A DNA stretch of 40,024 bases from a virus (taxonomy: Duplodnaviria > Caudoviricetes): IMG/VR virus record IMGVR_UViG_3300025451_000027, positions 1 through 40,024 of that record; one strand, 5' to 3'. The notes under the pieces are model-generated. The model had not been told where the DNA came from. It did not search any database and saw nothing but the letters and a program-made list of their open reading frames with translations. A program made the translations under genes and the position numbers. Shown here piece by piece: positions 1-40,024 of this stretch; position 1 is the first letter of the stretch; each line of letters opens with the position of its first letter.

Positions 1-248
1 TGCAGATCACGCTGGCGCTGAAGCGCGGCGCCAGAGGCGCGATGCTGATCGTGCCCGACGTCACCACCAAGGTGCCCGAGCCCAAGCTCGAAGCGACGAT
101 GTTGTGGGCCACGGTGGAAGGCAACCTGACGCCCGACAACCCGAAGCAGCAGAAGCTGGACCTGCGCCAGGTCGACCCCGACACCGGCGAGCTGCGCAGC
201 CTGGGCAGCGCCCCGGCCGCACCGGCTGAACTTCGCACGGCGGGCTGA
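1..248 (+). CDS. Phage hypothetical protein, 5'-truncated by window edge
   Basis: ORF ending ...GNLTPDNPKQQKLDLRQV..., resembles the small gene usually found upstream of DUF2303. Confidence 0.55.
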   Translation, partial: QITLALKRGARGAMLIVPDVTTKVPEPKLEATMLWATVEGNLTPDNPKQQKLDLRQVDPDTGELRSLGSAPAAPAELRTAG

Positions 249-249
249 C

Positions 250-1167
250 ATGGCCTCGTCGTTCGGCACCCCCCAACCCCAACAGCCCGCAGCGGCCAAG
301 CCCATCATCATGGAAACCAAAAACATTGCCGAGACGTTGGCTGACGTGCTGCCCAAGGTCAGCATCATCGGCGGCATCGATCCGACCACCGCCTTGCAAG
401 TGACGCTGGCCGCCGTGCCCAAGGGCCACGAGCTGCGCGAGGTGGACCTGGAGCGCCTGCTGCCCGCGCCGCGCCGCGCGGTGCTGGGCGTCAGCCTGGC
501 GCAGCCCGAGAGCTTCATCGACTACCTGACCCGCCACGCCAGCCCGGCCACGGTGGTGTGGTGCGACTTCAACCCGCAGACGCACCAGCTGGCCTTCGAG
601 GCGGTGTTCGACGACCTGGGCGCCAAGCAGGTGCCCGGTTGGCGCGGCCACCGCGCGCGCTATGCGCCCGAGCACAGCGCCGAGTGGAAGGTTTGGACCC
701 GAGCCAACGGCATGGACAAGGCACAGGCGCAGCTGGACTTCGCGATGTTTCTGGAGCGCAACGAGAGCGACATCGCAGCGGTTGAAGGCATGCCGACCAG
801 CGCCCAGATGATGCAGATGGCCACGGCCTTCGAGGCCAACAGCGACAAGCGGGTGAAGAGCATCGTCAAGATCCAGGGCGGCGGCACGCGGCTGGACTTC
901 ATCGACGACAACAACGCCGAGACCGAAGCGAACATGAAGCTGTTCGAGAAGTTCGCGATCGGCGTGCCGGTGTTCTGGGCCGGCCCGAGCTACCGCGTGG
1001 ATGCCAGGCTGCGCTACCGCCACGCCAGCGGCAAGGTGGCGTTCTGGTACGAGCTGATCCGCGCCGATCGGGTGCATGAAGCCGCGGCCAAGGAACTGAT
1101 CGAGAAGATCCGCACCGGACTGCCCGAGGGCGTGCCGCTGCTGATGGGCACCACCGCCAAGGCCTGA
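250..1167 (+). CDS. DUF2303 (YfdQ-like) phage protein
   Basis: Motifs SFIDYL, WRGHRARY, SAEWKVW, QLDFAMFLE, ARLRYR, FWYEL. Confidence 0.8.
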   Translation: MASSFGTPQPQQPAAAKPIIMETKNIAETLADVLPKVSIIGGIDPTTALQVTLAAVPKGHELREVDLERLLPAPRRAVLGVSLAQPESFIDYLTRHASPATVVWCDFNPQTHQLAFEAVFDDLGAKQVPGWRGHRARYAPEHSAEWKVWTRANGMDKAQAQLDFAMFLERNESDIAAVEGMPTSAQMMQMATAFEANSDKRVKSIVKIQGGGTRLDFIDDNNAETEANMKLFEKFAIGVPVFWAGPSYRVDARLRYRHASGKVAFWYELIRADRVHEAAAKELIEKIRTGLPEGVPLLMGTTAKA

Positions 1168-1176
1168 GCGACCGCC

Positions 1177-1422
1177 ATGCGCACCGAGACGATCACCTGG
1201 AATGAATTGCCGGCCGACGGCGTGCCGGATGCCGACACGACTGTGCTGGTTGCGTTCAAGTTCAACGACGAGCCGGCCGTCGACACATCCGCCATCGACA
1301 CCTGGCCAGCTTGGTGGAGCGGCGAGCACTGGATGGACGCTGCTACGGGTGATCGCATGGAGCGCTGGGGCGACTGCAAGGTGGTGGCCTGGGCTGACAT
1401 GCCGGCGGGTGGCGCGGCATGA
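1177..1422 (+). CDS. Phage hypothetical protein (DUF551-like, W-rich)
   Basis: 81 aa, TW..LP...PD..VLV ... VVAWADMP pattern; coupled to the next gene. Confidence 0.6.
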   Translation: MRTETITWNELPADGVPDADTTVLVAFKFNDEPAVDTSAIDTWPAWWSGEHWMDAATGDRMERWGDCKVVAWADMPAGGAA

Positions 1423-2333
1423 TCGCCATCGACCTGTTTGCCGGTGCCGGCGGTTTCAGCACCGGCGCCGCCTCAGCGGGCTGCACGGTGGCTTGGGCCG
1501 CCAACCACTGGCCCGCCGCGGTGGAATGGCACAGCGCAAACCACCCGACCACGCTGCATGCCTGCCAGGATCTGCAACAGGCCGACTTCACGGATGCGCC
1601 GCAGCACGATCTGCTGCTGGCCTCGCCGGCCTGCCAGGGCCACAGCCGCGCCCGCGGCGCCGAGCGCGCGCACCATGACGGTCAGCGCGCGACAGCCTGG
1701 GCAGTGATCACCTGCGCCGAGGTGCACCGGCCTGCTTTCGCGCTGGTCGAGAACGTGCCCGAGTTCGCCGCGTGGGCGCTCTACCCGGCGTGGTGCGCAG
1801 CGTGGCGCGCGCTGGGCTATGCCCTGGCGCCGCAGATCATCGACGCCGCCGACCATGGTGTGCCGCAGAACCGGCGGCGCCTGTTCATCGTGGCCAGCAG
1901 AAGCAAGCACCCGGCGGCGCTGGATCTGCAGCCGCGCGAGCACCGGCCAGCGGCCGAGGTGATCGACTTCAACGCCGGCCGGTGGTCGATGGTAGACAAG
2001 CCCGGCCGCAGCGCCCGCACCCTGTCTCGCGTGGCCGCCGGCCGGCGCCAACACGGCGCGCGCTTCGTAGCGCCCTACTACGGCAGCGGCAGCGGCGAGA
2101 CCGGCCGCAGCCTGGCCCGGCCGCTGGGCACGATCACCACGCGCGACCGCTGGGCCGTGATCGACGGCGACCGGTTGCGCATGCTGTCGGCCGACGAGTG
2201 CCGGGCGGCGATGGGCTTCCCGGCCGGCTACAGGCTGCCCGCGCAGCATCACCAGGCCGTGCATCTGCTTGGCAATGCGGTTTGCCCACCGGTGGCCGCC
2301 GACATCATCAACGCGCTGAGGGCTGCAGCATGA
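1419..2333 (+). CDS. DNA cytosine-5 methyltransferase
   Basis: Motif I DLFAGAGG, motif IV ASPACQGHS, motif VI ENV, motif VIII PQNRRRLF, motif X GNAV. Confidence 0.9.
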   Translation: MIAIDLFAGAGGFSTGAASAGCTVAWAANHWPAAVEWHSANHPTTLHACQDLQQADFTDAPQHDLLLASPACQGHSRARGAERAHHDGQRATAWAVITCAEVHRPAFALVENVPEFAAWALYPAWCAAWRALGYALAPQIIDAADHGVPQNRRRLFIVASRSKHPAALDLQPREHRPAAEVIDFNAGRWSMVDKPGRSARTLSRVAAGRRQHGARFVAPYYGSGSGETGRSLARPLGTITTRDRWAVIDGDRLRMLSADECRAAMGFPAGYRLPAQHHQAVHLLGNAVCPPVAADIINALRAAA

Positions 2334-2776
2334 GCCGCCACCGCAAGGCTCAGCCCGAGCTGCGCCCGGTCTACGCGCAGCCCAAGCTAGACCGGCGCGA
2401 CCGTGCCGCGGCGCGGGCCTTTCGCGAAGCCGCCTTCACCGGCGCCCGCCACCGCCCCGCGCCCGGCGACTTCGACCCGCTGCATCTGCGCCAGGGCATG
2501 CGTGCAAACGAGGTGCAGCAGCGCGCCGGCTGGGTGGTCAGCAATCCGCTGCTCGATCAGACCCTGGTGCGCAATCCAGGCCTTGACGCGAGCCTGCCAG
2601 GCTATGGCTGGCTGCGCATGGTCTACCGCTCGCGCTTCTGCGACCTGGTGTGCTTGCCGGGAACGCTGGCCGCGATCGAAAAGCAGGTTCCGGCCGAGAG
2701 GTCGGCCGCGATGCCTGCGCCTGCTGCGAGTGCAGTGACCGCAGTCGAGGTTGATCAGATGGAGATGTTTGCATGA
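2330..2776 (+). CDS. Hypothetical protein
   Basis: ATGA overlap with the MTase stop; MSRHRKAQ...QMEMFA. Confidence 0.55.
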   Translation: MSRHRKAQPELRPVYAQPKLDRRDRAAARAFREAAFTGARHRPAPGDFDPLHLRQGMRANEVQQRAGWVVSNPLLDQTLVRNPGLDASLPGYGWLRMVYRSRFCDLVCLPGTLAAIEKQVPAERSAAMPAPAASAVTAVEVDQMEMFA

Positions 2777-2828
2777 GCACCGGCCACATCACCTACCCAG
2801 CAGGATCCCTGGTGCGCGCGTCGGAGAT
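2773..2828 (+). pseudogene. N-terminus of an ORF (MSTGHITYPAGSLVRASEI) interrupted by the junction
   Basis: ATGA-coupled start at 2773; the sequence switches to the attC body at 2829. Confidence 0.45.
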
Positions 2829-2883
2829 CGTTGCCGGTAACCGGCTTGCCGAAGGCAAGTCCGGGTTGACCGGCCTGTTGGGC
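2829..2883 (-). other. attC A2, copy truncated at the crossover point
   Basis: Same as 39862-39916 but the CCATAA part is replaced by GGAGAT. Confidence 0.8.
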
Positions 2884-2991
2884 GGCCCTACCCGAAGCGA
2901 AAAGGACTGAGCATGAAGGACGAACTGCTGGTGCGTGCTGCACAGGCCAACGGCCACGCCTACCCGTGGACGATGCCGAACGGCTTTGGCG
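2829..2991 (+). repeat. Direct repeat copy 1 (163 bp; copy 2 at 39862-40024)
   Basis: Identical except G2864 vs A39897. Confidence 0.95.
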
Positions 2992-3272
2992 AGCGGCCGT
3001 GGAACCCGCTGACCAACAACGAGGACGCCTTGGTGCTGGCGGTGCGCATCGGGCTGCAGGTGACCGCGTACCCGATGTATGACGAGCCGAAGCATTCGGT
3101 GATCGTGCGCAAGCCGGTATGGGACCACGATGCGCAGGAAGGCGATGGCGTGGAAGTTGTCGAGCCCTACGGCACCGATGCGCTGGCGGCCACGCGCCGC
3201 GCCATCACGATGTGTGCTGCTGAGCTGGCACGCCGCAAGACGCCCAACGTCAATGGTGAGGCGACCACGTAG
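2913..3272 (+). CDS. Cassette gene, phage hypothetical protein
   Basis: WNPL....DAL.LAV.. and ATRRAI..AAE motifs common in phage accessory proteins; reads into the attC (NVNGEATT). Confidence 0.75.
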   Translation: MKDELLVRAAQANGHAYPWTMPNGFGERPWNPLTNNEDALVLAVRIGLQVTAYPMYDEPKHSVIVRKPVWDHDAQEGDGVEVVEPYGTDALAATRRAITMCAAELARRKTPNVNGEATT

Positions 3273-3343
3273 GCGCGCGCCGAGTTGTCCGGAAATCCCG
3301 GACGACTCACGCCGGAGTGGGTCGCCTCGACCTGGAGTTGGGC
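3242..3343 (-). other. attC A3 (102 bp, same as B2)
   Basis: GCCCAAC...GTTGGGC; stem GGTGAGGCGACC/GGTCGCCTCGACC with extra base; nested hairpin in the loop. Confidence 0.85.
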
Positions 3344-3367
3344 TGGTTCCGAAGCGAAGGAAAGACG

Positions 3368-3598
3368 ATGAGCGACTTTTACAACCCGCACGAAGACCGC
3401 ACGGCGCGCAAGGCTCACCGCTGCACCTACTGCGCCGAGCAGATTGCGGTTTGCGAACACTATGTGCACCAGACCGGCGTGTATGACGGCAAGTGGTACA
3501 CGAACAAGATGCACCCGGAGTGCTTCAAAGAGCTGTGCGACGAGGGAGAAGGTGAATTCACACCGTACAGCAACGAGCGGCCGAAGGCCGACGCCTAA
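3368..3598 (+). CDS. Cassette gene, small Cys/His (Zn-binding) protein
   Basis: ARKAHRCTYC...HPEC motif; stop TAA is part of GCCTAAC. Confidence 0.75.
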   Translation: MSDFYNPHEDRTARKAHRCTYCAEQIAVCEHYVHQTGVYDGKWYTNKMHPECFKELCDEGEGEFTPYSNERPKADA

Positions 3599-3694
3599 CG
3601 CTAGGTTAACCGGCCCGAAACGGCCCGAACAGGAGTATGCAAATGGAACAGACTAGCCCGGCCGTTTTGGGTCCGGTTGAACCGACAGTTATGC
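3593..3694 (-). other. attC A4 (102 bp; RBS and ATG of the next gene in its loop)
   Basis: GCCTAAC-6nt-GTTAACCGGCCC...GGGTCCGGTTGAAC-5nt-GTTATGC. Confidence 0.8.
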
Positions 3695-3993
3695 AGCACA
3701 CGCCGGGGCCGTGGAAGGCTAGTGTTTGCAACTCTGAGCGCTACAGCTACACCGTGGACGCGGCCGGGCCGTGGCCTTACAACCATGTTGCGCTGATACC
3801 TGAAATGTACGGGCCGCACTGCCTGACGCCTGGCGCACATGCTGCCAACGTGCGCTTGATCGAGGCCGCCCCTGACTTGCTGGCTGCGTGCCTGGCCCTG
3901 AAGGTCGCTGGCCCGCTTGGGCAGCGCGAATGGAACGCCGCTGCGGACATGATGGACGCGGCGATTGCCAAGGCTGTTGCAGGTGCTGCATAA
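3637..3993 (+). CDS. Cassette gene, phage hypothetical (HTPGPW...ANARLIAAAPDLL type)
   Basis: HTPGPW and ANVRLIEAAPDLL motifs; AGGAG RBS inside the attC. Confidence 0.75.
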   Translation: MQMEQTSPAVLGPVEPTVMQHTPGPWKASVCNSERYSYTVDAAGPWPYNHVALIPEMYGPHCLTPGAHAANVRLIEAAPDLLAACLALKVAGPLGQREWNAAADMMDAAIAKAVAGAA

Positions 3994-4047
3994 CCAATAA
4001 GTTAACCGGCGCCCGAATGGGCGTCCGAGTTGAACTGGCGGTTAGGC
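3988..4047 (-). other. attC A5 (60 bp, same as B6)
   Basis: GCATAAC CAATAA GTTAACCGGCGCCCGAATGGGCGTCCGAGTTGAAC TGGCG GTTAGGC. Confidence 0.9.
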
Positions 4048-4075
4048 GTGTGGGTGAGAAACAAGGAGAACGACG

Positions 4076-4321
4076 ATGGAAAAGTTTGAAGCGCTGAAGA
4101 AGGCCAAGGCATCGGAGCGGCATTACCCGTCCGACTACTGGGGCAACAACGACCCACGCTGCCCGCACTGCGGCCAGGAGTGCAAGGTGGCCGACAACGA
4201 GTGGTGGGAGCTGTACGAAGAAGGCGAGCACGAGGTTTCGTGCCCGCACTGCGACGGCGATTTCAGCGTGAGCACGAGGGTTAGCTACAGCTTTAGCACC
4301 GATGAGCAAGAAGACGCCTAA
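4076..4321 (+). CDS. Cassette gene, zinc-ribbon protein
   Basis: Two CPHC motifs; AAGGAG RBS; stop in GCCTAAC. Confidence 0.75.
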   Translation: MEKFEALKKAKASERHYPSDYWGNNDPRCPHCGQECKVADNEWWELYEEGEHEVSCPHCDGDFSVSTRVSYSFSTDEQEDA

Positions 4322-4388
4322 CGTTCGAGCTAACCGGACCGTGGAGGCCGAAGGCCGGAACGGGTCCGAGTTGAGCGAGTAGTTAGCC
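4316..4388 (-). other. attC A6 (73 bp)
   Basis: On the minus strand GGCTAAC TACTC GCTCAACTCGGAC...GTCCGGTTAGC TCGAAC GTTAGGC. Confidence 0.9.
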
Positions 4389-4416
4389 CGCCGCAACGAG
4401 AAGCGAGAGGACAGTG

Positions 4417-4851
4417 ATGAGCAAGGGATTCGCAGCGATTGCGCTGCACCAGCCGAAAGACCCGCTGAACGTGGGTGAGGTGCTGCGCGCTGCCGGGTGC
4501 TACGGCGCCGCGATGGTGGCCGCCAGTGGCGTGCGCTACCACCGCGCCCGTACCGACACGCAAGCGGCGCACCGACACCTGCCGCTGCTGACGTGCGACG
4601 ACTTGCGCGCCATGATCCCGCACGGGGCGGTTCCGGTGGCGGTTGACTTGATCGAAGGCGCGCAGGCCCTGCCTGGCTACAAGCACCCGCGCAGCGCGTT
4701 CTACGTGTTCGGACCCGAGGACGGCACGCTAGGACCCGAGGTGCTGGCCTGGTGCCGTGATGTGGTGTACGTGCCGACGCGCCACTGCATGAACTTGGCC
4801 GCCACGGTGAATGTGGTGCTTTACGACCGCGCCGCGAAACAAGCGGGCTAA
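4417..4851 (+). CDS. Cassette gene, SpoU/TrmH-family (SPOUT) RNA methyltransferase
   Basis: PKDPLNVGEVLRAAGCYG, YVFGPEDGTL, YVPTRHCMNLAATVNVVLYDR. Confidence 0.85.
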   Translation: MSKGFAAIALHQPKDPLNVGEVLRAAGCYGAAMVAASGVRYHRARTDTQAAHRHLPLLTCDDLRAMIPHGAVPVAVDLIEGAQALPGYKHPRSAFYVFGPEDGTLGPEVLAWCRDVVYVPTRHCMNLAATVNVVLYDRAAKQAG

Positions 4852-4947
4852 CGTCGAAGGTAACGCGCCTGGCGCGGCGCAAAAGACGCCAAATGAATAA
4901 CGGAAGCTCGCTCGCCGCGACAGGTCGCGTTGACCGCAGCTTTGCCG
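4846..4947 (-). other. attC A7, degenerate (R'' box damaged)
   Basis: GGCTAAC-6nt-GGTAACGCGCCTG...CAGGTCGCGTTGACC-5nt-TTTGCCG instead of GTTRRRY. Confidence 0.6.
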
Positions 4948-5160
4948 TTGCATGGCGGCCCGAGCCTGCTGCGATGGCATTACGACGATGACCGCAAGCC
5001 GACCAGCGTGCAGATCGGCGCGGACTACAACCACCTGCACGACACGCACTTCAGCAGCTACGCCACCGCCGATGACGCTTACGAGGTATTTGCTGACGCC
5101 GAGCGACTGTTTAACCACCTGGCAGAGATGGTGGCTACGGAGGCTGTTGGTGCTGCCTAA
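4930..5160 (+). pseudogene. Cassette gene, probably 5'-truncated
   Basis: No good start or RBS; stop TAA in GCCTAAC. Confidence 0.45.
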
Positions 5161-5177
5161 CGTGCTTTAGACAACAT
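5155..5177 (-). other. Putative attI-like entry site of array A
   Basis: Minus strand ...TGTCTAAAGCAC/GTTAGGC: core site with no palindromic partner, at the array boundary. Confidence 0.45.
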
Positions 5178-5210
5178 CAGAAGACTTTAAGCAATGCACA
5201 AGGGCAACCC

Positions 5211-24312: not shown

Positions 24313-24693
24313 TCAACGCTCCATCGTTGCAATCGCCCTGCGAGACATGGCACGTGGCACACGCTTGCGCAACTCTTCAAGCACTAGCACCAGCCCAGCC
24401 GCTGGCGACCATTGCTCACCATCAATCACCGCGCACCATTGATCGTTGCGCGGCCTGATTCCGTACTGTGTCGGCTTCGGCGCGTGCAACTCAATCTGCA
24501 CCAGCCGCCCGTGGATCCGCGCGTGGATGAAATCACCTGTAGGCGTTCCAGGCTTGCGCTCTGCCGGATAGATCGGCGGGTCTTGCGCCATCCGGCGAGC
24601 GTCATTTGATGCGTTGCGCATGGCAATGGCCTCGGGCCGATTTGCCTTCGTCCACTGCCTACATCTGCGGCGTCGAGTTTTGAAAGTTGACAT
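24313..24693 (-). CDS. Hypothetical protein
   Basis: 126-aa ORF at the end of the leftward operon. Confidence 0.55.
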   Translation of the reverse strand: MSTFKTRRRRCRQWTKANRPEAIAMRNASNDARRMAQDPPIYPAERKPGTPTGDFIHARIHGRLVQIELHAPKPTQYGIRPRNDQWCAVIDGEQWSPAAGLVLVLEELRKRVPRAMSRRAIATMER

Positions 24694-25069
24694 ATCGACT
24701 AGTTAGGCCATATAGGCGCCAAAGGTACGCCGCCCTGAATGCCTCATGCTCGGCCATTTCTTTGTCAAACATCGCTTGTGCTCCACCAAGAGCCCTAGCC
24801 TCGCCAATATCTGGCAGATGTCCAGGGCCTTCAAGCGTGTTCTCGATCCATGCCATCCCACTGCCAGGGCCGCGCAGCGCCCCATCAACCACAGCCGCGC
24901 GCATGGCGAGAATATGGCGGTGCATCACGTCTCCAAACATGATCGCCCGGCGCTCGCTGCTAGCCTCCGCCACTTCAATGCCCAGGGCAAATGCGGTCAG
25001 TTCACGGTCTGTCGGGTCAATACCGGGGAGCTTGCGCTTCCAGGCCGCGAGTATTTGGTCGTTTGTCAT
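24659..25069 (-). CDS. Cassette gene, hypothetical
   Basis: AAGGA RBS, MTNDQILAAW...; WI.NTL.GPG motif. Confidence 0.65.
   Translation of the reverse strand: MTNDQILAAWKRKLPGIDPTDRELTAFALGIEVAEASSERRAIMFGDVMHRHILAMRAAVVDGALRGPGSGMAWIENTLEGPGHLPDIGEARALGGAQAMFDKEMAEHEAFRAAYLWRLYGLTSRYVNFQNSTPQM
24686..24708 (+). other. Putative attI-like entry site of array B
   Basis: GTTGACATATCGACTA/GTTAGGC; the core matches R'' GCCTAAC of B1; no palindromic partner upstream. Confidence 0.4.
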
Positions 25070-25099: not shown

Positions 25100-25166
25100 G
25101 CCTAACTACCGTTCGAGCTGACCCGCGCCGGCAAGCCGTCGCGGTCAGCTCAACTAGACGTTGGGC
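25100..25166 (+). other. attC B1 (67 bp)
   Basis: GCCTAAC TACC GTTCGAGCTGACC...GGTCAGCTCAAC TAGAC GTTGGGC. Confidence 0.9.
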
Positions 25167-25423
25167 CTCAAGGCCCGCAGATCGGGGCATGCCTGCTCGC
25201 ACACCTCCGCCAGCACTGCCGCAGTGATGTCGTCAAATGCTGTGTCTGACCTGCTCACGCGCCAGTGCACAGAACTAAGCGCAGAACGAAGCCGTGCAAT
25301 CTCTGCCGCAGCCTCGCGCATCAATCCTGCCGGTGTAGTAATGCCCATCAGATCGCACATGTCGGTCGAATCAATCAACCGCTTTTCAAGAGTGCTTCCA
25401 ATCGGGTCTGTGCAGCTTCCCAT
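25154..25423 (-). CDS. Cassette gene, hypothetical
   Basis: GGAGG RBS before ATG 25423; LMREAAAEIARLR motif. Confidence 0.65.
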   Translation of the reverse strand: MGSCTDPIGSTLEKRLIDSTDMCDLMGITTPAGLMREAAAEIARLRSALSSVHWRVSRSDTAFDDITAAVLAEVCEQACPDLRALRPNV

Positions 25424-25522
25424 GAGTCCTCCAATCGCCCGGCTGCGCCAGGCTTCAATGCACACGCTCAGCGCTGCGCGCTCAGCTTCCAGTTTTCTCA
25501 GCTTGGCCACGCCCCGGACACA

Positions 25523-25624
25523 GCCCAACTCCAGGTCGAGGCGACCCACTCCGGCGTGAGTCGTCCGGGATTTCCGGACAACTCGGCGCGCGCCTACGTG
25601 GTCGCCTCACCATTGACGTTAGCG
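25523..25624 (+). other. attC B2 (102 bp, reverse complement of A3)
   Basis: GCCCAAC...GTTAGCG; matches 3246-3345. Confidence 0.85.
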
Positions 25625-26340
25625 GTCATCAGTTGTTCGGCCAAGATGGCGAATGCAGCCGCTGCCACTCTTGGAACTTGTCCGTTTCCAATGGCTTTAA
25701 GTCGCTCCACCCCTGCGGCCACCCCATCAACCACTCCGACAATTCCGGGTTTATCCACCCTTCTACCGTTCCAAGTTCGGGGAGGTTTTTCCCATTCCGT
25801 AAGTTGCTGCCAAACCCCGATATAACTTTTCGGCCATCGCTCGCCTGCGGCGTGGCCCACAATCCAGATGCGGTCGCGTTGGTGGGGCGCTCCAGTGTTT
25901 CCGGCTGAAACACAAGTCCACGCCGCATCAAACCCCAGCTTGGCAAGGTCGCCCAAAACCACGGCAAGTCCTCGCTCCACAAGCAAAGGTGAGTTTTCCA
26001 CGAACACGAATCTAGGTCGTACTTCACCAATGATTCGCGCCATTTGATACCACATAGAACTTCTGTCGCCATCTATGCCCGCTCCTTTTCCTGCACTACT
26101 GATGTCCTGGCACGGAAACCCGCCCGAAACAACATCAACAATTCCTCTCCACGGGGTTCCATCAAAGGTTTGCACGTCATCCCATATCGGGAAAGGTTCC
26201 AAAACCTTGTCGTTTTGTCGCTGGGCAAGTACGCCTGCGGGGTAGGGTTCCCACTCAACGGCGCACACTGTTCGCCATCCGAGAAGTTTTCCCCCAAGTA
26301 TTCCGCCACCAGCGCCCGCGAAAAGAGCCAACTCATTCAT
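25594..26340 (-). CDS. Cassette gene, DNA cytosine-5 methyltransferase (alpha-type chain lacking motif IX)
   Basis: LFAGAGG, GGFPCQDIS, FVENSP, PHQRDRIW, LKAIGNGQVP. Confidence 0.88.
   Translation of the reverse strand: MNELALFAGAGGGILGGKLLGWRTVCAVEWEPYPAGVLAQRQNDKVLEPFPIWDDVQTFDGTPWRGIVDVVSGGFPCQDISSAGKGAGIDGDRSSMWYQMARIIGEVRPRFVFVENSPLLVERGLAVVLGDLAKLGFDAAWTCVSAGNTGAPHQRDRIWIVGHAAGERWPKSYIGVWQQLTEWEKPPRTWNGRRVDKPGIVGVVDGVAAGVERLKAIGNGQVPRVAAAAFAILAEQLMTANVNGEATT
25629..26072 (-). CDS. Nested alternative-frame ORF, putative beta chain of the MTase
   Basis: WATP.ASD and INPELSEWLMGWPQGWS (motif IX-like). Confidence 0.55.
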   Translation of the reverse strand: MATEVLCGIKWRESLVKYDLDSCSWKTHLCLWSEDLPWFWATLPSWGLMRRGLVFQPETLERPTNATASGLWATPQASDGRKVISGFGSNLRNGKNLPELGTVEGWINPELSEWLMGWPQGWSDLKPLETDKFQEWQRLHSPSWPNN

Positions 26341-26384
26341 TTCTCCTGTCCTCACCGTATCGCCAGCACCGACTTTTCAAAAAC

Positions 26385-26441: not shown

Positions 26442-26615
26442 CGCTTCAGGCCCGCCAGCGTTGGGCTTCGTTGACATCGCTGCGGCAACCTTAGCCACAG
26501 CGTGCCAGCGTGCCCATTCGTCTGTTTCAGGCCCGCGCCACTGGCCGTGCTCGTCGTAGTAGTAGGCGCGACGCAGGGCATCTTCTAGTGGCGTGTTTGG
26601 TATCTCTTGCTTCAT
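26436..26615 (-). CDS. Cassette gene, 59-aa hypothetical (not in the ORF track)
   Basis: MKQEIPNTPLEDALRRAY...GGPEAP; ATGA-coupled; stop TAA in the B3 core. Confidence 0.55.
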   Translation of the reverse strand: MKQEIPNTPLEDALRRAYYYDEHGQWRGPETDEWARWHAVAKVAAAMSTKPNAGGPEAP

Positions 26616-27405
26616 ACCAACTCCAGCACTTCCTGTGCAATCCGTTGTTCCGCTATCGCGCAGTATTCCGGGTTCACCTCCAGACCGATGAACTGACGGC
26701 CCAACGTCTTCGCTGCCTTGGCAGTCGTGCCGCTGCCGCTGAAGGGGTCAAGCACCAGATCGCCGGGGTTGCTCCAAGTGGCTACGTGGTCGCGGGCCAG
26801 GTCAAACGGGAACGGGGCCGGGTGGTCGCTCTTGTCTTCTGCTGCCTGCTGGCTCGCCAATCCCAAGTCCCATACGTTCGTGCGCAGGCCCAGGTCGCCA
26901 ATCTGCACAATGCGCCCCGTGTCTTTGCTGCCGTACTTCTCTGCCCGGCCGCCACTCGTCCCGGCGCGGCTTGTGCCGGCGCTCTTGTTCACACGGTCGG
27001 CCAGCCTGTTGCTTGTCTTTGGCTTGCCCTTTGTCACCACAAACATGAACTCAGCACTCTGCGGGTAAGCGTCGTTGTTGCCGTTCGCACCAGCCGGGGG
27101 CTTGTTCCAAATCATCGTGTCCAGCAGGTTCAGCCCCAGCCGCTTGAAGTGCAGCGCCTGCTCCATGCTGCTGCCCGTCTCGCTGCCGTCCTTCGTGGCG
27201 TCGGCCACTACCCACACGATCACGCCGCCAGGCTTCAGCACGCGCTTCAGGTGCCACGCCACGCCGAAGAAGTCCCAGCTATGCCGCCGTAGGTGCGCAA
27301 GTCGTCATAGGGCGGGCTCGTCACCACCAAATCAACGCTCTCGCGTGGCATCTTGCCCAGCAAGTCGCAGTTGTCGCCGCAGTGAATCTGGTTCAGTTCA
27401 AGCAT
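26612..27405 (-). pseudogene. Cassette gene, N4-C/N6-A DNA methyltransferase (beta class) with a 1-nt frameshift near 27283
   Basis: VTSPPY in one frame, HPAPFP and DPFSGSGTT in the other; GGCATAGC would read G-H-S with one more C. Confidence 0.8.
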
Positions 27406-27435
27406 GCACACATCCTCTCGTTTCTCAACCATGCG

Positions 27436-27504
27436 CCCTAACATGTCAGTCAACCGGAATTGCCCCGGCAGGCCGGGTCAATCCGGTTACCGGCCACGTT
27501 AGTC
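27436..27504 (+). other. attC B4 (69 bp)
   Basis: CCCTAAC ATGTC AGTCAACCGGAATTG...CAATCCGGTTACC GGCCAC GTTAGTC. Confidence 0.88.
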
Positions 27505-27666
27505 GCTTGGCTCACGCACCCGGTCCAGCCAGTCGCGCAGCCGCTGGTGGCCTATCCGTGTGAGCTTGGCTTTTTGGGCATCGTTCAAACGAACTGGCAC
27601 AGGGTTGAGCTTTTCACCGGGGGCCTTTGCAGGCCGCCCGGTTTTCTTGGCGGCCGGTTCGCTCAC
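27499..27666 (-). CDS. Cassette gene, 55-aa GRP/ribbon-helix-helix-like DNA-binding protein (not in the ORF track)
   Basis: MSEPAAKKTGRPAKAPGEKLNPVPVRLNDAQKAKLTRIGHQRLRDWLDRVREPSD; GTGA-coupled; stop in the B4 core. Confidence 0.6.
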   Translation of the reverse strand: MSEPAAKKTGRPAKAPGEKLNPVPVRLNDAQKAKLTRIGHQRLRDWLDRVREPSD

Positions 27667-27839
27667 TTGACTTTGACCGCGACCAGTTCGGACTCGTGAC
27701 CCATCACAGCCTCGGCATCAGCCTTGCTTTCGTAGCCCGCATCCTTGCAGGCGGCTTCGATTGCTGCTTCCTGGCTGTCGGCTTCGTACACGCCGAAAGA
27801 GTGGGCCGACTTGCTGTTGCTGACTTCGTACTTGCTCAT
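27663..27839 (-). CDS. Cassette gene, small acidic hypothetical protein
   Basis: AGGAG RBS; MSKYEVSN...FGVYEADS..AAIEA...DAGY. Confidence 0.65.
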   Translation of the reverse strand: MSKYEVSNSKSAHSFGVYEADSQEAAIEAACKDAGYESKADAEAVMGHESELVAVKVK

Positions 27840-27882
27840 GTTGCTCTCCTGGGTTGCTGCGGCGTCTTGCTGCAGTGGTGTT

Positions 27883-27921
27883 AATGTAATACCGCAACGG
27901 CAAGCACGCAAGCACTTTTTT
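27883..27921 (-). promoter_or_regulatory. Sigma70-like promoter inside a cassette
   Basis: A-tract, TTGCGT-17nt-TACATT. Confidence 0.65.
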
Positions 27922-27936
27922 GTAACACCAAAACGC

Positions 27937-28002
27937 GCCTAACACTTCGTTCCAGCGGACGTGCCGCTGGCGCGGCCCGCGCGCTGAACTCAAGCGTTAG
28001 GC
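27937..28002 (+). other. attC B5 (66 bp)
   Basis: GCCTAAC ACTTC GTTCCAGC GGAC...GCTGAAC TCAAGC GTTAGGC: canonical architecture. Confidence 0.92.
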
Positions 28003-28004
28003 AA

Positions 28005-28277
28005 CTAGGCGTGCCACTTGCTGATTGCGCGCGACAGTTCTTCGCGCCCGATGCCTTCGCGCAAGGCATCTTCTTCAAGGCTCTTACGCACGGCATGAGC
28101 ATTGCGGTTAATCAGCGCCATCTCTCGCGGGTTCGCCGGAATGATTCCGTCTTTTCCCATCGGGCCTGTGCAAACCGTCTGGTCATAGGCTTCGCATTCC
28201 GTGTGGTAGCGAGTTGCCATTTCATGCAGCCGGTTGTCGCGCTCTGTGGGTTTCCACTCTTGCTGCCATTCGTTCAT
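28005..28277 (-). CDS. Cassette gene, hypothetical
   Basis: GGAGA RBS; MNEWQQEW...CEAYDQTVCTG. Confidence 0.65.
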   Translation of the reverse strand: MNEWQQEWKPTERDNRLHEMATRYHTECEAYDQTVCTGPMGKDGIIPANPREMALINRNAHAVRKSLEEDALREGIGREELSRAISKWHA

Positions 28278-28297
28278 GCTTCTCTCCGAAAATCGTT

Positions 28298-28357
28298 GCC
28301 TAACCGCCAGTTCAACTCGGACGCCCATTCGGGCGCCGGTTAACTTATTGGTTAGGC
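28298..28357 (+). other. attC B6 (60 bp, reverse complement of A5)
   Basis: Matches 3991-4047. Confidence 0.9.
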
Positions 28358-28358
28358 G

Positions 28359-28631
28359 TCATCGGTCTTCAGGCTCGACCCAGAGCTGATCGGCTGTATA
28401 TGCGCTCTGCAAGAGCTTCGCAAAATCCATCAGGCCGTATCCCTCTTCTGGTGTTCCGCGCTGCGGGTACGCGATGGACCGCGCAATGTTTCTCAGCCTC
28501 AAGTTTTCGGCGTGCAACTCAAGAATGTCTGCCTTTGCGTCTTGCAGCGCAAACATTACTGCCGGCGCGCTCTGGTTGTGCGCCATTGCCTTTGGGTCGC
28601 AGACCCTCCAGGTCTCAATACTTCGCTTCAT
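28359..28631 (-). CDS. Cassette gene, hypothetical
   Basis: GAGGGG RBS; MKRSIETWRVCDPKAM... Confidence 0.65.
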   Translation of the reverse strand: MKRSIETWRVCDPKAMAHNQSAPAVMFALQDAKADILELHAENLRLRNIARSIAYPQRGTPEEGYGLMDFAKLLQSAYTADQLWVEPEDR

Positions 28632-28672
28632 GTCATTCCCCTCTGTTGGCCCTTCTGTTTGTTGCGCGTAAC

Positions 28673-28729
28673 GCCTAACCGTTCGCTCAAGCGGACGGCT
28701 ACGCCGCGCGCTTAGCTGTTTGGTTAGGC
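28673..28729 (+). other. attC B7 (57 bp)
   Basis: GCCTAAC CGTTC GCTCAAGC GGAC...GCTTAGC TGTTTG GTTAGGC. Confidence 0.92.
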
Positions 28730-28966
28730 CCGTTTGTTCCAGCGCCGAATCGCGCAGTCCATGTAGGCGCCTGTCCCGCGCTCGTCGGCGCTGTCCTGTC
28801 CGTCCTTCACGCTTGGGGCTACGGCGCACCGGCTGCTGGCGCAGTACACCTTGCCCCAGGCGTTGCCCTCCTCGTCGGGGTTCTGAGGCGCCAGCTTCGG
28901 TTTGGTGCCACAAAACGGGCATGGCAGCGGCACCAGCTTGGGTTTCAGTTGCTTCTCACGCATCAT
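28724..28966 (-). CDS. Cassette gene, Lar-family (restriction alleviation) zinc-finger protein
   Basis: LPCPFCG...VYC...C...AIRRWNKRA. Confidence 0.75.
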   Translation of the reverse strand: MMREKQLKPKLVPLPCPFCGTKPKLAPQNPDEEGNAWGKVYCASSRCAVAPSVKDGQDSADERGTGAYMDCAIRRWNKRA

Positions 28967-28985
28967 CTCGCTCCGGTTACAACGG

Positions 28986-29039
28986 GCCTAACCCGTCATT
29001 CGAGCCGACCGTTCCGGCGGCTCAATTCCCACGTTAGGC
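28986..29039 (+). other. attC B8 (54 bp)
   Basis: GCCTAAC CCGTC ATTCGAGC CGAC...CG GCTCAAT TCCCAC GTTAGGC. Confidence 0.9.
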
Positions 29040-29363
29040 ATCACGAATACGCGCCGCCAGCATCGCGGCATCAATCAGCGCGTCCATGCTATCGGCTGGT
29101 GCGTGCTGGGTGCCGCCTTCTGCGAGCGAGTGCGTTGCGCTGAATTCCGTGCCGTCCATGCGCTTCCACACGTTCGGCTGTTTCTCGCTTCTCAGCGTCA
29201 GGCCCTGGCGGCTTTTCAGCCAGCGGTAACGTGCCGCATCCTTCTCAAGCGCCGCCTGTCGCGCTTCTGCGCGTTGCGGACACGTCCGCCCAACTGCTTG
29301 GTCGAGGCGACCCCCAACAGCAGGGGCGTCCTGTGGCGTATCGGTAGCAGTTTTGTCGTTCAT
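29034..29363 (-). CDS. Cassette gene, phage hypothetical (DAARYRWL...DALIDAAM type)
   Basis: Motifs as named; the start lies inside attC B9. Confidence 0.7.
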   Translation of the reverse strand: MNDKTATDTPQDAPAVGGRLDQAVGRTCPQRAEARQAALEKDAARYRWLKSRQGLTLRSEKQPNVWKRMDGTEFSATHSLAEGGTQHAPADSMDALIDAAMLAARIRDA

Positions 29364-29408
29364 GTGTTTCCTCGTGCTGTCGGGGTCGCCTCACCGCGAA
29401 CGTTAGGC
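29288..29408 (+). other. attC B9 (121 bp; RBS and ATG in the loop)
   Basis: GCCCAAC TGCTT GGTCGAGGCGACCCC...GGGGTCGCCTCACC GCGAAC GTTAGGC. Confidence 0.85.
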
Positions 29409-29777
29409 CTCTCGCACGCGGGCCAGCAAAGTGCCTGGCTTTGCAATGCGGCTGCCAATCTCGCGCATGTGCTGCGAGTACACGGCTGGCTCGCACTCAC
29501 GGACTAGCGCGCGCAGCCGGTCGGACTTCACCTCTGCGTCCAGCAACGCGTTGTTCAGCGTCAGCACCTGGTCGGCCAGTTCCAACGTGTCGGCCTCGTC
29601 GTACAGGGCGCGCATAGTCTCAACGGCCCCGCACGAACTACACCAACTGTCGCCGGGCGTAAGGCCCTCGCTGGTGCTGGTGTGGCCGCATCGGCTGCAC
29701 TTCCACGCGACAGGCCTAACAGGCCGCTGCACCGGCCCTGCGTCGGCGCGGCTGCTCTTGCTCGCTTCGTCACTCAT
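29403..29777 (-). CDS. Cassette gene, zinc-ribbon plus coiled-coil hypothetical
   Basis: CSRC...CSSC; the start lies inside attC B10. Confidence 0.7.
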   Translation of the reverse strand: MSDEASKSSRADAGPVQRPVRPVAWKCSRCGHTSTSEGLTPGDSWCSSCGAVETMRALYDEADTLELADQVLTLNNALLDAEVKSDRLRALVRECEPAVYSQHMREIGSRIAKPGTLLARVREA

Positions 29778-29815
29778 GGCTCGCGCCTCCTTGTCCGGTG
29801 AGCTTTGCGTTAGAA
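29714..29815 (+). other. attC B10 (102 bp; RBS and ATG in the loop)
   Basis: GCCTAAC AGGCC GCTGCACCGG...CCGGTGAGC TTTGC GTTAGAA. Confidence 0.75.
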
Positions 29816-29849
29816 CTCTCGCAAATCTTCATTTGCAGCCCAAGCCGCG

Positions 29850-30056
29850 TCATGCTTCCTCCGCAGCCATAAGGGCCAGCGTCGCAACAAGCACCGCTCG
29901 GTTCTTGACGCGGAGCCAACGGCTGATCATGTCGATGTGACGGCTAACCGATGCCGCCGTGATGCCGATGGCCGGTCCGATCCTGCTGGCCGGGATTCCG
30001 TCAAGCAGCAGTGCGGCAACTGCGCTGTGAGTTGGCGCCCAAAGCTCGTTCATCAT
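29850..30056 (-). CDS. LuxR/GerE-like HTH protein
   Basis: VAALLLDG....IG..IGIT..SV.RH...I...L.VKNRA. Confidence 0.65.
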   Translation of the reverse strand: MMNELWAPTHSAVAALLLDGIPASRIGPAIGITAASVSRHIDMISRWLRVKNRAVLVATLALMAAEEA

Positions 30057-30637
30057 TGAAGGCCAAGGGCCAGTTCCTTGACCGACTCGCCAGCTAGGCG
30101 AAGGGCATCAGACTTGGCCGGAAGCGTGGGCATGAACTCTTGTGCACGTTCATACGAAATCCGGCCCTTGTCCACCGCGTCGATAAGGGCTGATTCCCGC
30201 CCTCGAACGTCATGGCCTAGGGTGATGGTCCACTTCACTGCGACACCCCTATCCCTGGCCTGATTAACCATGCGCAAATAGGTCTCCTTGAACGCCATGC
30301 GTGCCTCAACCATCGCGCCAGCATCAATGAGCCCGACCGCCACGCCAAAGGCCTGCGACATTTCCGTCGTCCAAACGGCGCTATCGCCTTCGTTGTGAGG
30401 CAGCATTGCCCAAGCTTCCTCGACGCCAGGCCGCCCATCGTCAAGGCGGCTGACTACGTCCTTGATCGTCAAGGCCCCGCGCACTTCCTTGCGGCATCGC
30501 ACCAGCGCGCCAAGCACTTGTTCTTCTGGGTAGGCGCTAAGGTCGCCAACAAACACGCGGGCGGCGGCTTCTGAGAATGTCCGCCCACACAGCTCGCTAG
30601 TCACGGCGATAGCTCGGATGAGTTCAGGACTTGGCAT
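30053..30637 (-). CDS. Replication protein P-like / helicase loader
   Basis: Directly after the initiator; GRPGVEEAWA, ARMAFKE.Y motifs. Confidence 0.6.
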   Translation of the reverse strand: MPSPELIRAIAVTSELCGRTFSEAAARVFVGDLSAYPEEQVLGALVRCRKEVRGALTIKDVVSRLDDGRPGVEEAWAMLPHNEGDSAVWTTEMSQAFGVAVGLIDAGAMVEARMAFKETYLRMVNQARDRGVAVKWTITLGHDVRGRESALIDAVDKGRISYERAQEFMPTLPAKSDALRLAGESVKELALGLQ

Positions 30638-31730: not shown

Positions 31731-31921
31731 CAGAAGATCCTGTATTCCTTGACGCGCTTGCCGTCTGGAAGGTCTACCCAGCGATCCAGAACCTTGACGC
31801 CATCGCGGCGCAGATCGCCACAGCGCTGTGACAGGCTGAAGCACTTCGCCTCGTTCAGCGCGACGACTGGCGTAACCCAGCGGGCGCGCAGAAGCTTGAT
31901 CAGGTCGGCTTTCATGGTCAT
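31730..31921 (-). CDS. Small winged-helix protein
   Basis: T...AL....CFSLSQR..DLRR.G......V......V.EY. Confidence 0.6.
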   Translation of the reverse strand: MTMKADLIKLLRARWVTPVVALNEAKCFSLSQRCGDLRRDGVKVLDRWVDLPDGKRVKEYRIF

Positions 31922-32871: not shown

Positions 32872-32945
32872 TGGAGCGGGGGCCGGGAGTCGAACCCGGG
32901 TAGTCGGCTTGGAAGGCCGAGGCATAACCGCTCTGCCACGCCCGC
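32872..32945 (-). tRNA. tRNA-Gly (anticodon TCC), CCA encoded
   Basis: GCGGGCG TGGCAGAGCGGTTATGC C TCGGC CTTCCAA GCCGA CTAC CCGGG TTCGACT CCCGG CCCCCGC T CCA; one C-C mismatch in the acceptor stem. Confidence 0.88.
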
Positions 32946-36855: not shown

Positions 36856-37040
36856 TCACCGCCGCACACCTTGACCATGCCCAGCGCGCAAAGCGGCTGC
36901 ACGGCACGCCGCTTCATGTGCTGCTGCTGAGCAGTGGCGCCATGACCGGCCCATACCGCAGGGCGCGGCCCGTGACGGTAAGCCTGTTCTCGCGTCTTCT
37001 GCGCCAGCTGCGCGCGCATCAATTCAAGGTGAAGCCATGA
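36852..37040 (+). CDS. Small hypothetical protein
   Basis: Coupled to both neighbours. Confidence 0.45.
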   Translation: MITAAHLDHAQRAKRLHGTPLHVLLLSSGAMTGPYRRARPVTVSLFSRLLRQLRAHQFKVKP

Positions 37041-37681
37041 GCATGATTCACAGTTCAATCAAGTCGGCAATGGCTGAGATCGCAAGGACAGGCATTGCAA
37101 AGATCAGCCGCAACAAGGACCAGAGCTATAACTTTCGCGGCATTGAAGCAGCAATGAATGAGATGTGCCCGGTGTTGATCCGCGCCGGGATCATCGTTAG
37201 CCCGTCCTACAGCGAGCTGACCGTGCACGAACGCCAGAGCAAGAGCGGCGGAACTCTGCGGTTTGTGATGCTGAAAGGGTCATTCAAGTTCGAGGCCGAG
37301 GACGGATCGTTCGTGATCGGCGAAGCCTACGGCGAAGGCATGGATTCATCCGACAAGGCCACGACCAAGGCGCAGTCAGTGGCCTTCCGGACTGCGTTGT
37401 TTCAGCAGTTCATTGTCCCGACGATGGCAATTGATCCAGAGAGCGGCCTTGGAGTTCCGACGCGCGACGAAGAACTCGAAGAAATCGCGGCATCTGCTGT
37501 TGATAAGTTTGAGGCTGGCAACGAGTACGGCGCCTATGAAGAAGTCTCGTGCATCACCGATTCAGAGGAACAGCTTAAGTTGTGGTCTTTGCTGAAGCCG
37601 CATTCAAAGCTGCGCGCATCGATCAAGTCCCATGCTGCGCAAGAGCGAGCAAACCAAGACGCACTGGCGGGCAAGAAGTGA
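37037..37681 (+). CDS. ERF-family single-strand annealing protein
   Basis: N..Q.YNFRGIE, GEGMDSSDKATTKAQSVAFR.AL. Confidence 0.8.
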   Translation: MSMIHSSIKSAMAEIARTGIAKISRNKDQSYNFRGIEAAMNEMCPVLIRAGIIVSPSYSELTVHERQSKSGGTLRFVMLKGSFKFEAEDGSFVIGEAYGEGMDSSDKATTKAQSVAFRTALFQQFIVPTMAIDPESGLGVPTRDEELEEIAASAVDKFEAGNEYGAYEEVSCITDSEEQLKLWSLLKPHSKLRASIKSHAAQERANQDALAGKK

Positions 37682-37998: not shown

Positions 37999-38433
37999 AT
38001 GGCAAGCGTCAACAAAGTAACCCTCATCGGCAACCTGGGCCGCGATCCTGAAGTGCGCTATGCGCCCAGCGGCGCCGCAGTCTGTAACATCACCATTGCC
38101 ACGTCGCGGAGTTGGAAGGACAAGACCAGCGGCGAGCGCCAGGAAGAAACCGAATGGCACCGCGTGGTCTTTTACGACAAGCTGGCTGAAATCGCCGGGC
38201 AGTACCTGAAGAAGGGAAAGCCGGTCTACATCGAAGGCCGCCTGAAAACGCGCAAGTGGACCGACAAGGATGGCGTCGAGAAGTACACCACCGAGATCAT
38301 CGCCAACGAAATGACGATGCTTGGCGGAAACGACGGCGAACAAAAGCCGCAGCAGACGCACAGCCAGCAGCGCCAGGCAGCGGCCAAGGCGGTGACGGGG
38401 TTTGATGGGATGGAGGACGACATCCCGTTTTGA
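37999..38433 (+). CDS. ssb: Single-stranded DNA-binding protein
   Basis: [21 protein letters not shown] ... TEWHRVV ... DDIPF. Confidence 0.95.
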
Positions 38434-38459: not shown

Positions 38460-38489
38460 AAGGAGGCCTATCCAAATGTCCGGTGCCCA

Positions 38490-39861: not shown

Positions 39862-39916
39862 CGTTGCCGGTAACCGGCTTGCCGAAGGCAAGTCCGAGTT
39901 GACCGGCCTGTTGGGC
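39856..39916 (-). other. attC A2 (61 bp, intact copy)
   Basis: CCATAAC GTTGCC GGTAACCGGCTTGCCGAAGGCAAGTCCGAGTTGACC GGCCT GTTGGGC. Confidence 0.88.
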
Positions 39917-40024
39917 GGCCCTACCCGAAGCGAAAAGGACTGAGCATGAAGGACGAACTGCTGGTGCGTGCTGCACAGGCCAACGGCCACGCCTACCCGT
40001 GGACGATGCCGAACGGCTTTGGCG
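39862..40024 (+). repeat. Direct repeat copy 2 (includes the 5' part of the 2913 gene from 39946)
   Basis: Matches 2829-2991. Confidence 0.95.

What the first reader, a model, noticed from the sequence alone, without database searches (positions are those of the whole stretch)
3242..4047. Identical attC sites attached to unrelated genes in the two arrays (possible cassette genesis)
Seen: A3 (3246-3345) is the reverse complement of B2 (25521-25620), and A5 (3991-4047) of B6 (28298-28354). The genes on both sides differ in each pair. Identity begins at (T)AAC and runs a few bases past GTT into the downstream gene side, consistent with attC-then-gene units. Established: how new cassettes are made is unresolved. 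Inference: attC bodies are being copied onto new phage genes, possibly aided by the ERF/SSB system. These inverted repeats could also allow inversion of the intervening segment.
Basis: partly seen in the sequence, partly recalled or inferred. Interest (0 to 1): 0.8.

Follow-up and report, generated by a model that had tools for sequence, protein, structure and literature searches.

The report
Swappable attC hairpins in phage cassettes
A freshwater phage carries two pairs of identical DNA hairpins of the integron attC type in front of unrelated genes; related phages show these hairpins traded between gene cassettes at both of their ends, likely by a borrowed integron integrase, and one gene here may be a newly made cassette.

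Summary
Observation confirmed: 3246-3345 and 3991-4047 are exact reverse complements of 25521-25620 and 28298-28354, with unrelated flanking genes and phage-level depth on all flanks. The sites are attC-type hairpins in an integrase-less phage, inverted relative to their genes (a layout this scan has noted on other DNA; 17 earlier findings). The boundary at AAC is therefore just the canonical IntI crossover. The other boundary is the informative one. Across 362 related phage sites, 63 of 66 near-identical hairpin pairs head different genes, and one gene with one leader carries different hairpins that break at the R'' triplet (0 shared bases in 13 of 17 pairs). The gene after B6 has the same 23-nt leader but another hairpin in L169, so A5/B6 is a swap between existing cassettes, not genesis. 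A3 differs: it came with 6 leader bases, its cassette ends barely pair, and 4 of 6 homologs of its gene are plain operon genes, so it is a candidate young cassette. Best mechanism: IntI acting on both R boxes (inferred); microhomology recombination is the rival. ERF/SSB involvement is not shown; inversion is untested.

The parts
3242..3343 (-). attC site A3. Classical top strand is the - strand; the folding bottom strand is the gene strand (+). Body AAC..GTT is 3246-3339; canonical crossover AA|C at 3247/3248.
25523..25624 (+). attC site B2, body identical to A3; shares 6 leader bases with A3 and 17 with L004
3988..4047 (-). attC site A5; body 3992-4043
28298..28357 (+). attC site B6, body identical to A5
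2913..3272 (+). Gene before A3 (PHROG 5086, unknown function); belongs to the previous cassette and takes its stop codon from inside the A3 body. Six homologous loci all diverge just after the same AAC.
3368..3598 (+). Gene of the A3 cassette (PHROG 7314). Cassette ends pair at only 6 of 12; 4 of 6 homologs are plain operon genes. Candidate young cassette.
3593..3694 (-). attC site A4, between the two duplicated sites
3691..3993 (+). Gene before A5 (PHROG 1273); belongs to the A4 cassette, whose ends pair over 12 nt
4076..4321 (+). Gene of the A5 cassette (PHROG 6504, zinc-ribbon-like); same body plus gene in L024 and L132 behind other upstream genes
5155..5180 (-). Terminal, attI-like site of the right-arm array; 17 of its first 20 bases match the site that lies just before intI in phage record G020
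24683..24708 (+). Terminal half-site of the left-arm array (attI-like by position; inferred)
25154..25549 (-). ORF of the B2 cassette, no family hit; its first ~110 nt after the hairpin resemble the cassette behind a variant body in L005
25594..26355 (-). C5 cytosine methyltransferase before B2; belongs to the previous cassette and stops inside the B2 body
28005..28277 (-). Gene of the B6 cassette (PHROG 27964); homolog in L169 has the same 23-nt leader and another body, homolog in L168 a third body
28359..28631 (-). Gene before B6, no family hit; belongs to the previous cassette
37037..37681 (+). Erf-family single-strand annealing protein; candidate helper in the rival explanation only
37999..38433 (+). 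Single-strand DNA binding protein
39862..40024 (+). Repeat of 2829-2991 that closes a 37,033-bp circle, so sites 38694-39916 and 3242-5180 are one array

Best explanation
The duplicated stretches are attC hairpin bodies (AAC...GTT) that behave as modules separate from their genes, and an integron integrase supplied in trans likely recombines them at both ends. Shown: the sites have classical attC anatomy but face opposite to their genes; each gene module carries its own complementary ends; bodies re-assort among gene modules with sharp breaks at both triplets. From established integron biology: the AA|C break on the gene strand is the normal bottom-strand crossover that excises and inserts body-plus-gene cassettes, and it is resolved by replication, so copies accumulate. 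Inferred: a rarer top-strand crossover at R'' (G|TT on the gene strand) between neighbouring sites lets a gene leave with the next body and hands the old body to the next gene; ordinary cassette traffic then brings two cassettes with one body into one genome (A5/B6). The top-strand R box of the second site pairs well only if the two leaders are alike, which would explain why genes sharing a body share a few bases past GTT. A minority route, seen at A3/B2, grafts body plus a short leader onto a gene by a junction 6-22 nt into the leader; for the gene at 3368-3598 this may have made a new cassette from an operon gene.
For: Orientation: all 15 window sites scoring 12 or more score higher in the inverted sense; ribosome site plus start codon follows on the bottom strand at 187 of 362 phage sites and on the top strand at 6. 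Gene modules: start-to-end complementarity 8.5 nt against 4.9 at random, 288 cassettes. Bodies free of genes: 63 of 66 pairs at 95% or more differ in both flanking genes, 3 share their own gene, 0 the previous one; the A5 body heads 10 leader/gene groups at 14 sites; 8 of 11 gene families carry more than one body. Sharp R'' break: 0 bases shared inside the body in 13 of 17 same-gene pairs, spacer identity at chance; B6 gene in L169. AAC side at chance level, 2.3 against 1.9 nt, P=0.16, as a pure site-specific crossover predicts. Adjacent identical bodies on different genes in L094 are what swap-then-reinsertion gives. Enzyme available: no tyrosine recombinase in the window, but 4 of 4 phage records tested pass the IntI cut-off with intI right behind the last cassette, and an IntI-bearing Comamonas denitrificans genome holds an A5-like body on an inverted phage-type gene. 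Top-strand recombination at R'' is real but rare (PMC5027507).
Against: Top-strand recombination is 1,000-10,000 times rarer than bottom-strand for IntI1 (PMC5027507), and the phage sites keep the bottom-strand bias (bottom more stable at 74% of 362 sites). Same-body pairs share more leader than chance (4.1 against 1.8 nt, 0 of 20,000 draws), which microhomology explains more simply. A3/B2/L004 (6 and 17 nt) and L026/L027 (22 nt) cannot be clean R'' crossovers. One same-gene pair breaks 16 nt inside the body. Loci were gathered by body motifs, pairs are not independent, my site finder is home-made (3.5 hits per shuffled window at score 12), and hybrids that destroy the hairpin would be missed. 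No recombination was observed directly.
Confidence: 0.5

Rival explanations
1. Cassette order is shuffled by IntI, but bodies change genes without integrase, by replication slippage at the hairpin base or Erf/SSB-assisted annealing through the short R''-box and leader microhomology.
For: Excess leader sharing past GTT; junctions 6-22 nt into the leader; Erf and SSB genes present; integrase-free deletions between similar attC sites were ascribed to slippage in PMC5371416 (passage).
Against: 6 of 24 body families share 2 or fewer bases past GTT and 15 of 17 same-gene pairs share 2 or fewer inside the body; crossovers in the conserved L'' box, expected from homology, are seen once in 17. From recall, phage annealing proteins need tens of bases of homology, not 7.
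Confidence: 0.3
2. One reading: each duplicate marks fresh cassette genesis, a body copied onto a gene that was not a cassette before.
For: For A3: 4 of 6 homologs of its gene have no attC on either side, 1 has only a downstream body with a non-standard core, 1 only an upstream body seen (contig ends); its ends pair at 6 of 12, among the lowest 7 of 209 short cassettes; its leader came with the body.
Against: The B6 gene is a cassette elsewhere with the same leader and another body; the A5 cassette recurs intact in L024 and L132; most genes keep leaders complementary to their own ends. The tree of the A3 gene family has no supported branch, so gain and loss of cassette state cannot be told apart.
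Confidence: 0.13
3. Gene conversion between similar attC sites homogenises bodies in place, as proposed for Vibrio 59-be sites.
For: Proposed in PMC1382264 (passage); near-identical neighbours in L099.
Against: Replaced bodies are unlike and of different length (46, 52, 61 and 97 nt before one gene); median identity among window bodies is 0.53.
Confidence: 0.04
4. Assembly artefact: strains or different phages joined through shared hairpins make duplicates that no single genome holds.
For: The same contig has such a join: 1-2828 is at depth 5.8 against about 41 and 69% against 59% GC.
Against: Flank contigs of both pairs sit at phage depth, 32-64; L167 repeats the B6 context exactly; the cross-genome pattern does not depend on this contig.
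Confidence: 0.03

Closest known systems
CALINs in phage genomes (Qi et al. 2023, PMC9892861; main text read, supplements not seen)
   Same: attC clusters without intI in phages, with DNA methyltransferase cargo; 5 of 6 tested phage attC sites were recombined by IntI1.
   Different: The main text does not report genes inverted against attC, identical sites on unrelated genes, or body exchange. The supplementary tables, unseen, may show gene orientation.
Classical attC/IntI recombination and strand selectivity (Nivina et al. 2016, PMC5027507, parts 1, 3, 5 of 7; Loot et al. 2017, PMC5371416, passages)
   Same: Same site anatomy, AA|C crossover in R', replicative resolution; top-strand recombination at R'' exists at low frequency.
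   Different: There top-strand events are treated as wrong-way insertions at attI. Here the R'' junction is a frequent exchange point that re-pairs genes and sites, and the genes lie on the bottom strand.
Homogeneous attC sites of sedentary chromosomal integrons (Boucher et al. 2006, PMC1382264, passages; Ghaly et al. 2021, PMC8352920, passages)
   Same: Near-identical sites on unrelated genes; non-cassette homologs of cassette genes; genesis or gene conversion invoked.
   Different: Here the sites of one genome are diverse (median 0.53), so single swaps are visible. In the bacterial control, gene and body stay linked far more often (171 of 299 pairs against 3 of 66), though swaps at R'' occur there too.
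Cassette insertion at attG secondary sites (bioRxiv 10.1101/2022.09.11.507474, passages)
   Same: Offers a route to place a body next to a resident gene; L170 has a body after the A3 gene homolog at a non-standard core.
   Different: Explains the AAC-side junction only, not the R''-side one.

Membership tests
attC site | Inverted R''/R' boxes with the conserved AAC and GTT triplets | tested here: met
   All four sites
attC site | L''/L' boxes with an extra base giving an extrahelical G, plus an extrahelical T, on the bottom strand | tested here: met
   Predicted folds of the gene strand show bulged G and T on the arm opposite AAC; extra-base model fits this strand better than the other, 13.5 against 10.5 and 12 against 8.5
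attC site | Unpaired central spacer of 5-6 nt and length 57-141 bp | tested here: met
   Spacers 5/6 (A5, B6) and 4/6 (A3, B2; one short); lengths 60 and 102
attC site | Recombined by IntI as a folded bottom strand | not testable with these tools
   Indirect only: homologs break at AAC; an A5-like site lies in a Comamonas array
CALIN | Cluster of attC sites with no integron integrase nearby | tested here: met
   15 sites at score 12 or more in two arms; no PF00589 match in six frames
Complete integron | intI gene beside an attI site | tested here: not met
   No integrase; attI-like terminal sites only. Met in related records G006, G020, G031, G046
Classical gene cassette | ORF on the attC top strand, gene followed by its attC | tested here: not met
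   ORFs on the bottom strand: 187 against 6 of 362 sites
Classical gene cassette | Cassette start complementary to cassette end | tested here: met
   9 and 10 nt for the A5 and B6 cassettes; weak for A3 (3 nt run, 6 of 12) and B2 (7 nt)
Classical gene cassette | Stable pairing of a gene with its own attC (recalled; implied by names such as attC-aadA7) | tested here: not met
   8 of 11 gene families carry several bodies; 3 of 14 pairs of genes 90% or more alike keep the body
Newly made cassette | Gene whose ancestors lay outside cassettes | tested here: inconclusive
   A3 gene: 4 of 6 homologs outside cassettes, tree unresolved. B6 gene: not met

The most novel reading that the evidence does not exclude
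Phage early operons are cassette factories. A borrowed IntI cuts attC hairpins at both R boxes, so a pool of free bodies is dealt out among genes; bodies with a short ribosome-binding leader are grafted in front of resident operon genes, making new cassettes such as A3 plus 3368-3598; and finished phage cassettes pass into bacterial integrons, as in Comamonas denitrificans. The same R''-side exchange would explain why unrelated genes in chromosomal integrons carry near-identical attC sites.
Probability: 0.22. Interest if true: 0.88.

Novelty: new variant of a known kind. Interest (0 to 1): 0.62.

Why it matters
How genes acquire attC sites, and why unrelated cassettes share near-identical ones, are open questions in integron biology. 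These phage arrays have diverse sites and self-complementary gene ends, so each gene-to-site junction can be dated and assigned. They show that the gene-attC link is not fixed and name the exact base where it breaks, which makes a simple deletion assay possible. It also cautions against using attC sequence to infer where a cassette gene came from, and shows that shared hairpins can join different genomes in assemblies.

Tried and rejected
Assembly collapse: rejected on depth and on L167. Homologous flanking genes: rejected. My first reading, gene-then-attC units with a top-strand break at AAC, was dropped once the bulge pattern showed the sites are inverted. Inversion between the repeats: the two read-laying runs held contigs only, one arm each, and listed no strand-changing joint; contigs break at the repeats, so this is no test. 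Cultured phages: no match to the array DNA or to the A3 gene in 50,697 records. Plasmids: no match for A3, four 83% partial matches for A5. Rfam gave one tRNA only. The Erf protein brought 3 loci, too few to sample close relatives. L133 is a chance 22-nt match inside a large gene and was dropped. The tree of the A3 gene family had 0 of 4 supported branches. The bacterial control is dominated by one repeated 58-copy family, so its ratios are rough. Longest-ORF orientation was noisy (205 bottom, 83 top of 288), so the ribosome-site test was used. In-frame GTG starts inside the A3 and B2 bodies lack a spaced ribosome site and were not pursued. Eight literature searches found no paper on body exchange or inverted phage cassettes; the library lacks most subscription papers.

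Full report
Setting. The window is a virus record. A 163-nt repeat (2829-2991 and 39862-40024) closes a 37,033-bp circle with terminase, portal, capsid, lysis, replication, Cro-like, Erf and SSB genes (55 ORFs scanned). No tyrosine recombinase is found in six frames. Bases 1-2828 are probably another genome joined at a shared hairpin: 69% GC against 59% and depth 5.8 against about 41 in run X1. Two arms of small genes run away from the replication gene, each broken up by attC-type hairpins.

Observation. Both duplications are exact: 100 of 100 and 57 of 57 bases, against 14-20 nt for the longest inverted match in 30 shuffles. The next most similar pair among 17 window sites is 0.84 and the median 0.53. 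The eight flanking genes are unrelated, apart from the ten residues that two upstream ORFs read from the hairpin. In X1 the 100-nt repeat is its own contig at depth 66, its listed flanks are at 32-64 and the loose ends show all four flanks of each repeat. X1 may be the source sample. L167 matches 27517-32277 at 4761 of 4761 bases. No record spans A3 or B2 with both flanks.

The sites are inverted. With a home-made finder for the classical top-strand layout (R'', spacer, 8-nt L'' with an extra base, 7-nt L', spacer, R'), 15 window sites score 12 or more, 13 of them 13 or more; ten shuffles gave 35 and 3 in all. All 15 fit best on the strand opposite to their genes. Predicted folds of the gene strand show the bulged G and T of a bottom strand. 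In 362 sites from the window and 126 loci (five copies of the window left out, duplicates merged, 13 sites with short flanks dropped), a ribosome site and start codon follow on the bottom strand 187 times and on the top strand 6 times; in 263 bacterial sites the counts are 29 and 47. I reached this reading before looking up the scan, which holds 17 findings of the same layout on other DNA. It follows that the gene-strand AA|C is the canonical IntI crossover (PMC5027507) and that a cassette is body, leader, gene. Six loci homologous to the gene before A3 all diverge right after its AAC, and all 14 A5-type sites have different upstream genes.

Gene modules have their own ends. The start of each cassette is complementary to the end of its own gene: mean run 8.5 nt, 57% at 9 or more, against 4.9 and 5% for random pairs, over 288 cassettes. 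This tells whether a leader came with the gene or with the body.

Bodies are not tied to genes. Of 66 pairs of bodies at least 95% alike, 63 differ in both flanking genes, 3 share their own gene and none the previous gene. Of 50 pairs sharing their own gene, 38 have bodies under 70% alike. By families, 23 of 24 body families head more than one gene and 8 of 11 gene families carry more than one body; one gene has bodies of 46, 52, 61 and 97 nt. In 17 pairs with the same gene and leader but a different body, identity inside the body is 0 bases in 13, 2 or fewer in 15, and 16 in one. The direct case is B6: L169 has the same gene (83% amino acid identity) and the same 23-nt leader with an unrelated body, and L168 a third body. 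The A5 body heads 10 leader/gene groups, and its pairing with the zinc-ribbon gene recurs in L024 and L132. A5/B6 is therefore a swap between existing cassettes at the R'' triplet. Identical neighbours also occur within L094.

Over 24 families (387 sites in an enlarged set), same-body pairs share 4.1 bases past GTT against 1.8 at random (0 of 20,000 draws), but only 2.3 against 1.9 outside AAC (P=0.16); 6 of 24 families share 2 or fewer past GTT. For A5/B6 the 4 shared bases are the commonest core. For A3/B2 they are not: A3, B2 and L004 share 6 and 17 leader bases, and L026/L027 share 22 before different genes. The A3 cassette's ends pair at 6 of 12, a level reached by 7 of 209 short cassettes. 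Of 6 homologs of its gene, 4 lie in plain operons with no attC beside them, one has only a downstream body with a non-standard core and one an upstream body where the contig then ends (a seventh weak hit was left out). This is what a young cassette would look like, but the tree is unresolved, and non-cassette homologs can also be former cassettes (PMC1382264, passages).

Enzyme. Of 50 related records, 16 have a tyrosine recombinase match; the four top scorers, the only ones tested, pass the IntI cut-off and have intI starting about 45 nt behind the last cassette, on the gene strand. In G006 that last cassette is the homolog of 2913-3272. The window's terminal site at 5155 matches the pre-intI site of G020 at 17 of its first 20 bases. 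A genome scan with an A5 motif gave 3 loci; one is a 16-site Comamonas denitrificans array in which an A5-like body sits on an inverted, phage-type ORF, and that genome encodes IntI. So IntI in trans is likely.

Mechanism (inferred). Bottom-strand crossovers move body-plus-gene units, with replicative resolution (PMC8946536, passage). A top-strand crossover at R'' between neighbours n and n+1 removes gene n with body n+1 as a normal-looking circle and joins body n to gene n+1. Ordinary reinsertion then puts one body on two genes in one genome. The top-strand R box of site n+1 pairs leader n+1 with the end of gene n, which mirrors leader n, so swaps would favour alike leaders. Against this, wild-type top strands recombine 1,000-10,000 times less often, and microhomology explains the leader excess more simply. 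If the iteron-like repeats at 31046-31120 mark the origin (GC skew minimum at 30891, confounded by gene direction), both arms put the bottom strand on the lagging template, the high-excision orientation of PMC5371416 (passages). I give IntI at both boxes 0.5, slippage or Erf annealing 0.3, repeated genesis 0.13.

Bacterial control. In 263 sites from 75 loci of the Comamonas family, 171 of 299 near-identical body pairs share their own cassette sequence and 137 of 193 close cassette pairs keep a body 85% or more alike, against 3 of 66 and 3 of 14 in the phages. Yet a repeated 58-copy family has five body types, and one pair 97% alike has bodies 67% alike. Exchange at R'' thus looks general but much more frequent in the phage pool. 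That family dominates the counts.

Novelty. Phage CALINs are in print (PMC9892861, main text read; supplements not seen and may show gene orientation). Eight searches found no paper on inverted phage cassettes or on attC bodies swapping between genes; two scan look-ups on swapping found no finding with all the words. Verdict: a real feature, a new variant of a known system; genesis contradicted for one pair and open for the other; interest 0.62.

Noticed in passing
window 1-2864: Probably a chimeric join: a GC-rich, low-depth genome (DUF2303 gene, C5 methylase) linked to the 37-kb circle through a shared attC body with a damaged core.
   Followed up: partly
L134:63-563 (Comamonas denitrificans): A chromosomal-type array with classically oriented genes holds one cassette with an A5-like body and an inverted, cysteine-rich phage-type ORF: likely a phage cassette captured by a bacterial integron.
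   Followed up: partly
L158, L159, L160, L161: Phage records with a true IntI starting about 45 nt behind the last inverted cassette, on the same strand as the cassette genes; in L159, L160 and L161 a second tyrosine recombinase follows.
   Followed up: partly
window 2913-3272 and 25594-26355: Both genes lack a stop at the cassette end and take their last ten residues from whichever body follows, so shuffling changes their C-termini.
   Followed up: no
window 3643-3993, 29034-29363, 29403-29777, 38739-39089: ORFs can start inside the loop of long attC bodies and read through the arm into the gene.
   Followed up: no
window 27504-27943 and L004:3080-3640: Cassettes with an AT-rich, promoter-like leader and two small genes, in the window ending in a small protein that looks DNA-binding: moron-like units.
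   Followed up: no
window 26612-27414: N6/N4 DNA methylase appears split by a frame change near 27290; may be a sequencing error or a broken gene.
   Followed up: no
window 38436-38470, 39060-39070, 4846-4953: Decayed or partial attC sites, including a half-site right after ssb.
   Followed up: no
window 4417-4851: A SpoU-family RNA methyltransferase is carried as a cassette.
   Followed up: no
L229, L230, L232, L233, L234: Comamonas-family arrays hold dozens of copies of a 220-270-bp apparently non-coding cassette with several different attC bodies.
   Followed up: partly
phage loci L033-L112: Cassette ends are more perfectly complementary in phages (57% at 9 nt or more) than in the bacterial sample (21%); how the match arises is unexplained.
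   Followed up: partly
window 32875-32945: One tRNA gene on the - strand.
   Followed up: no
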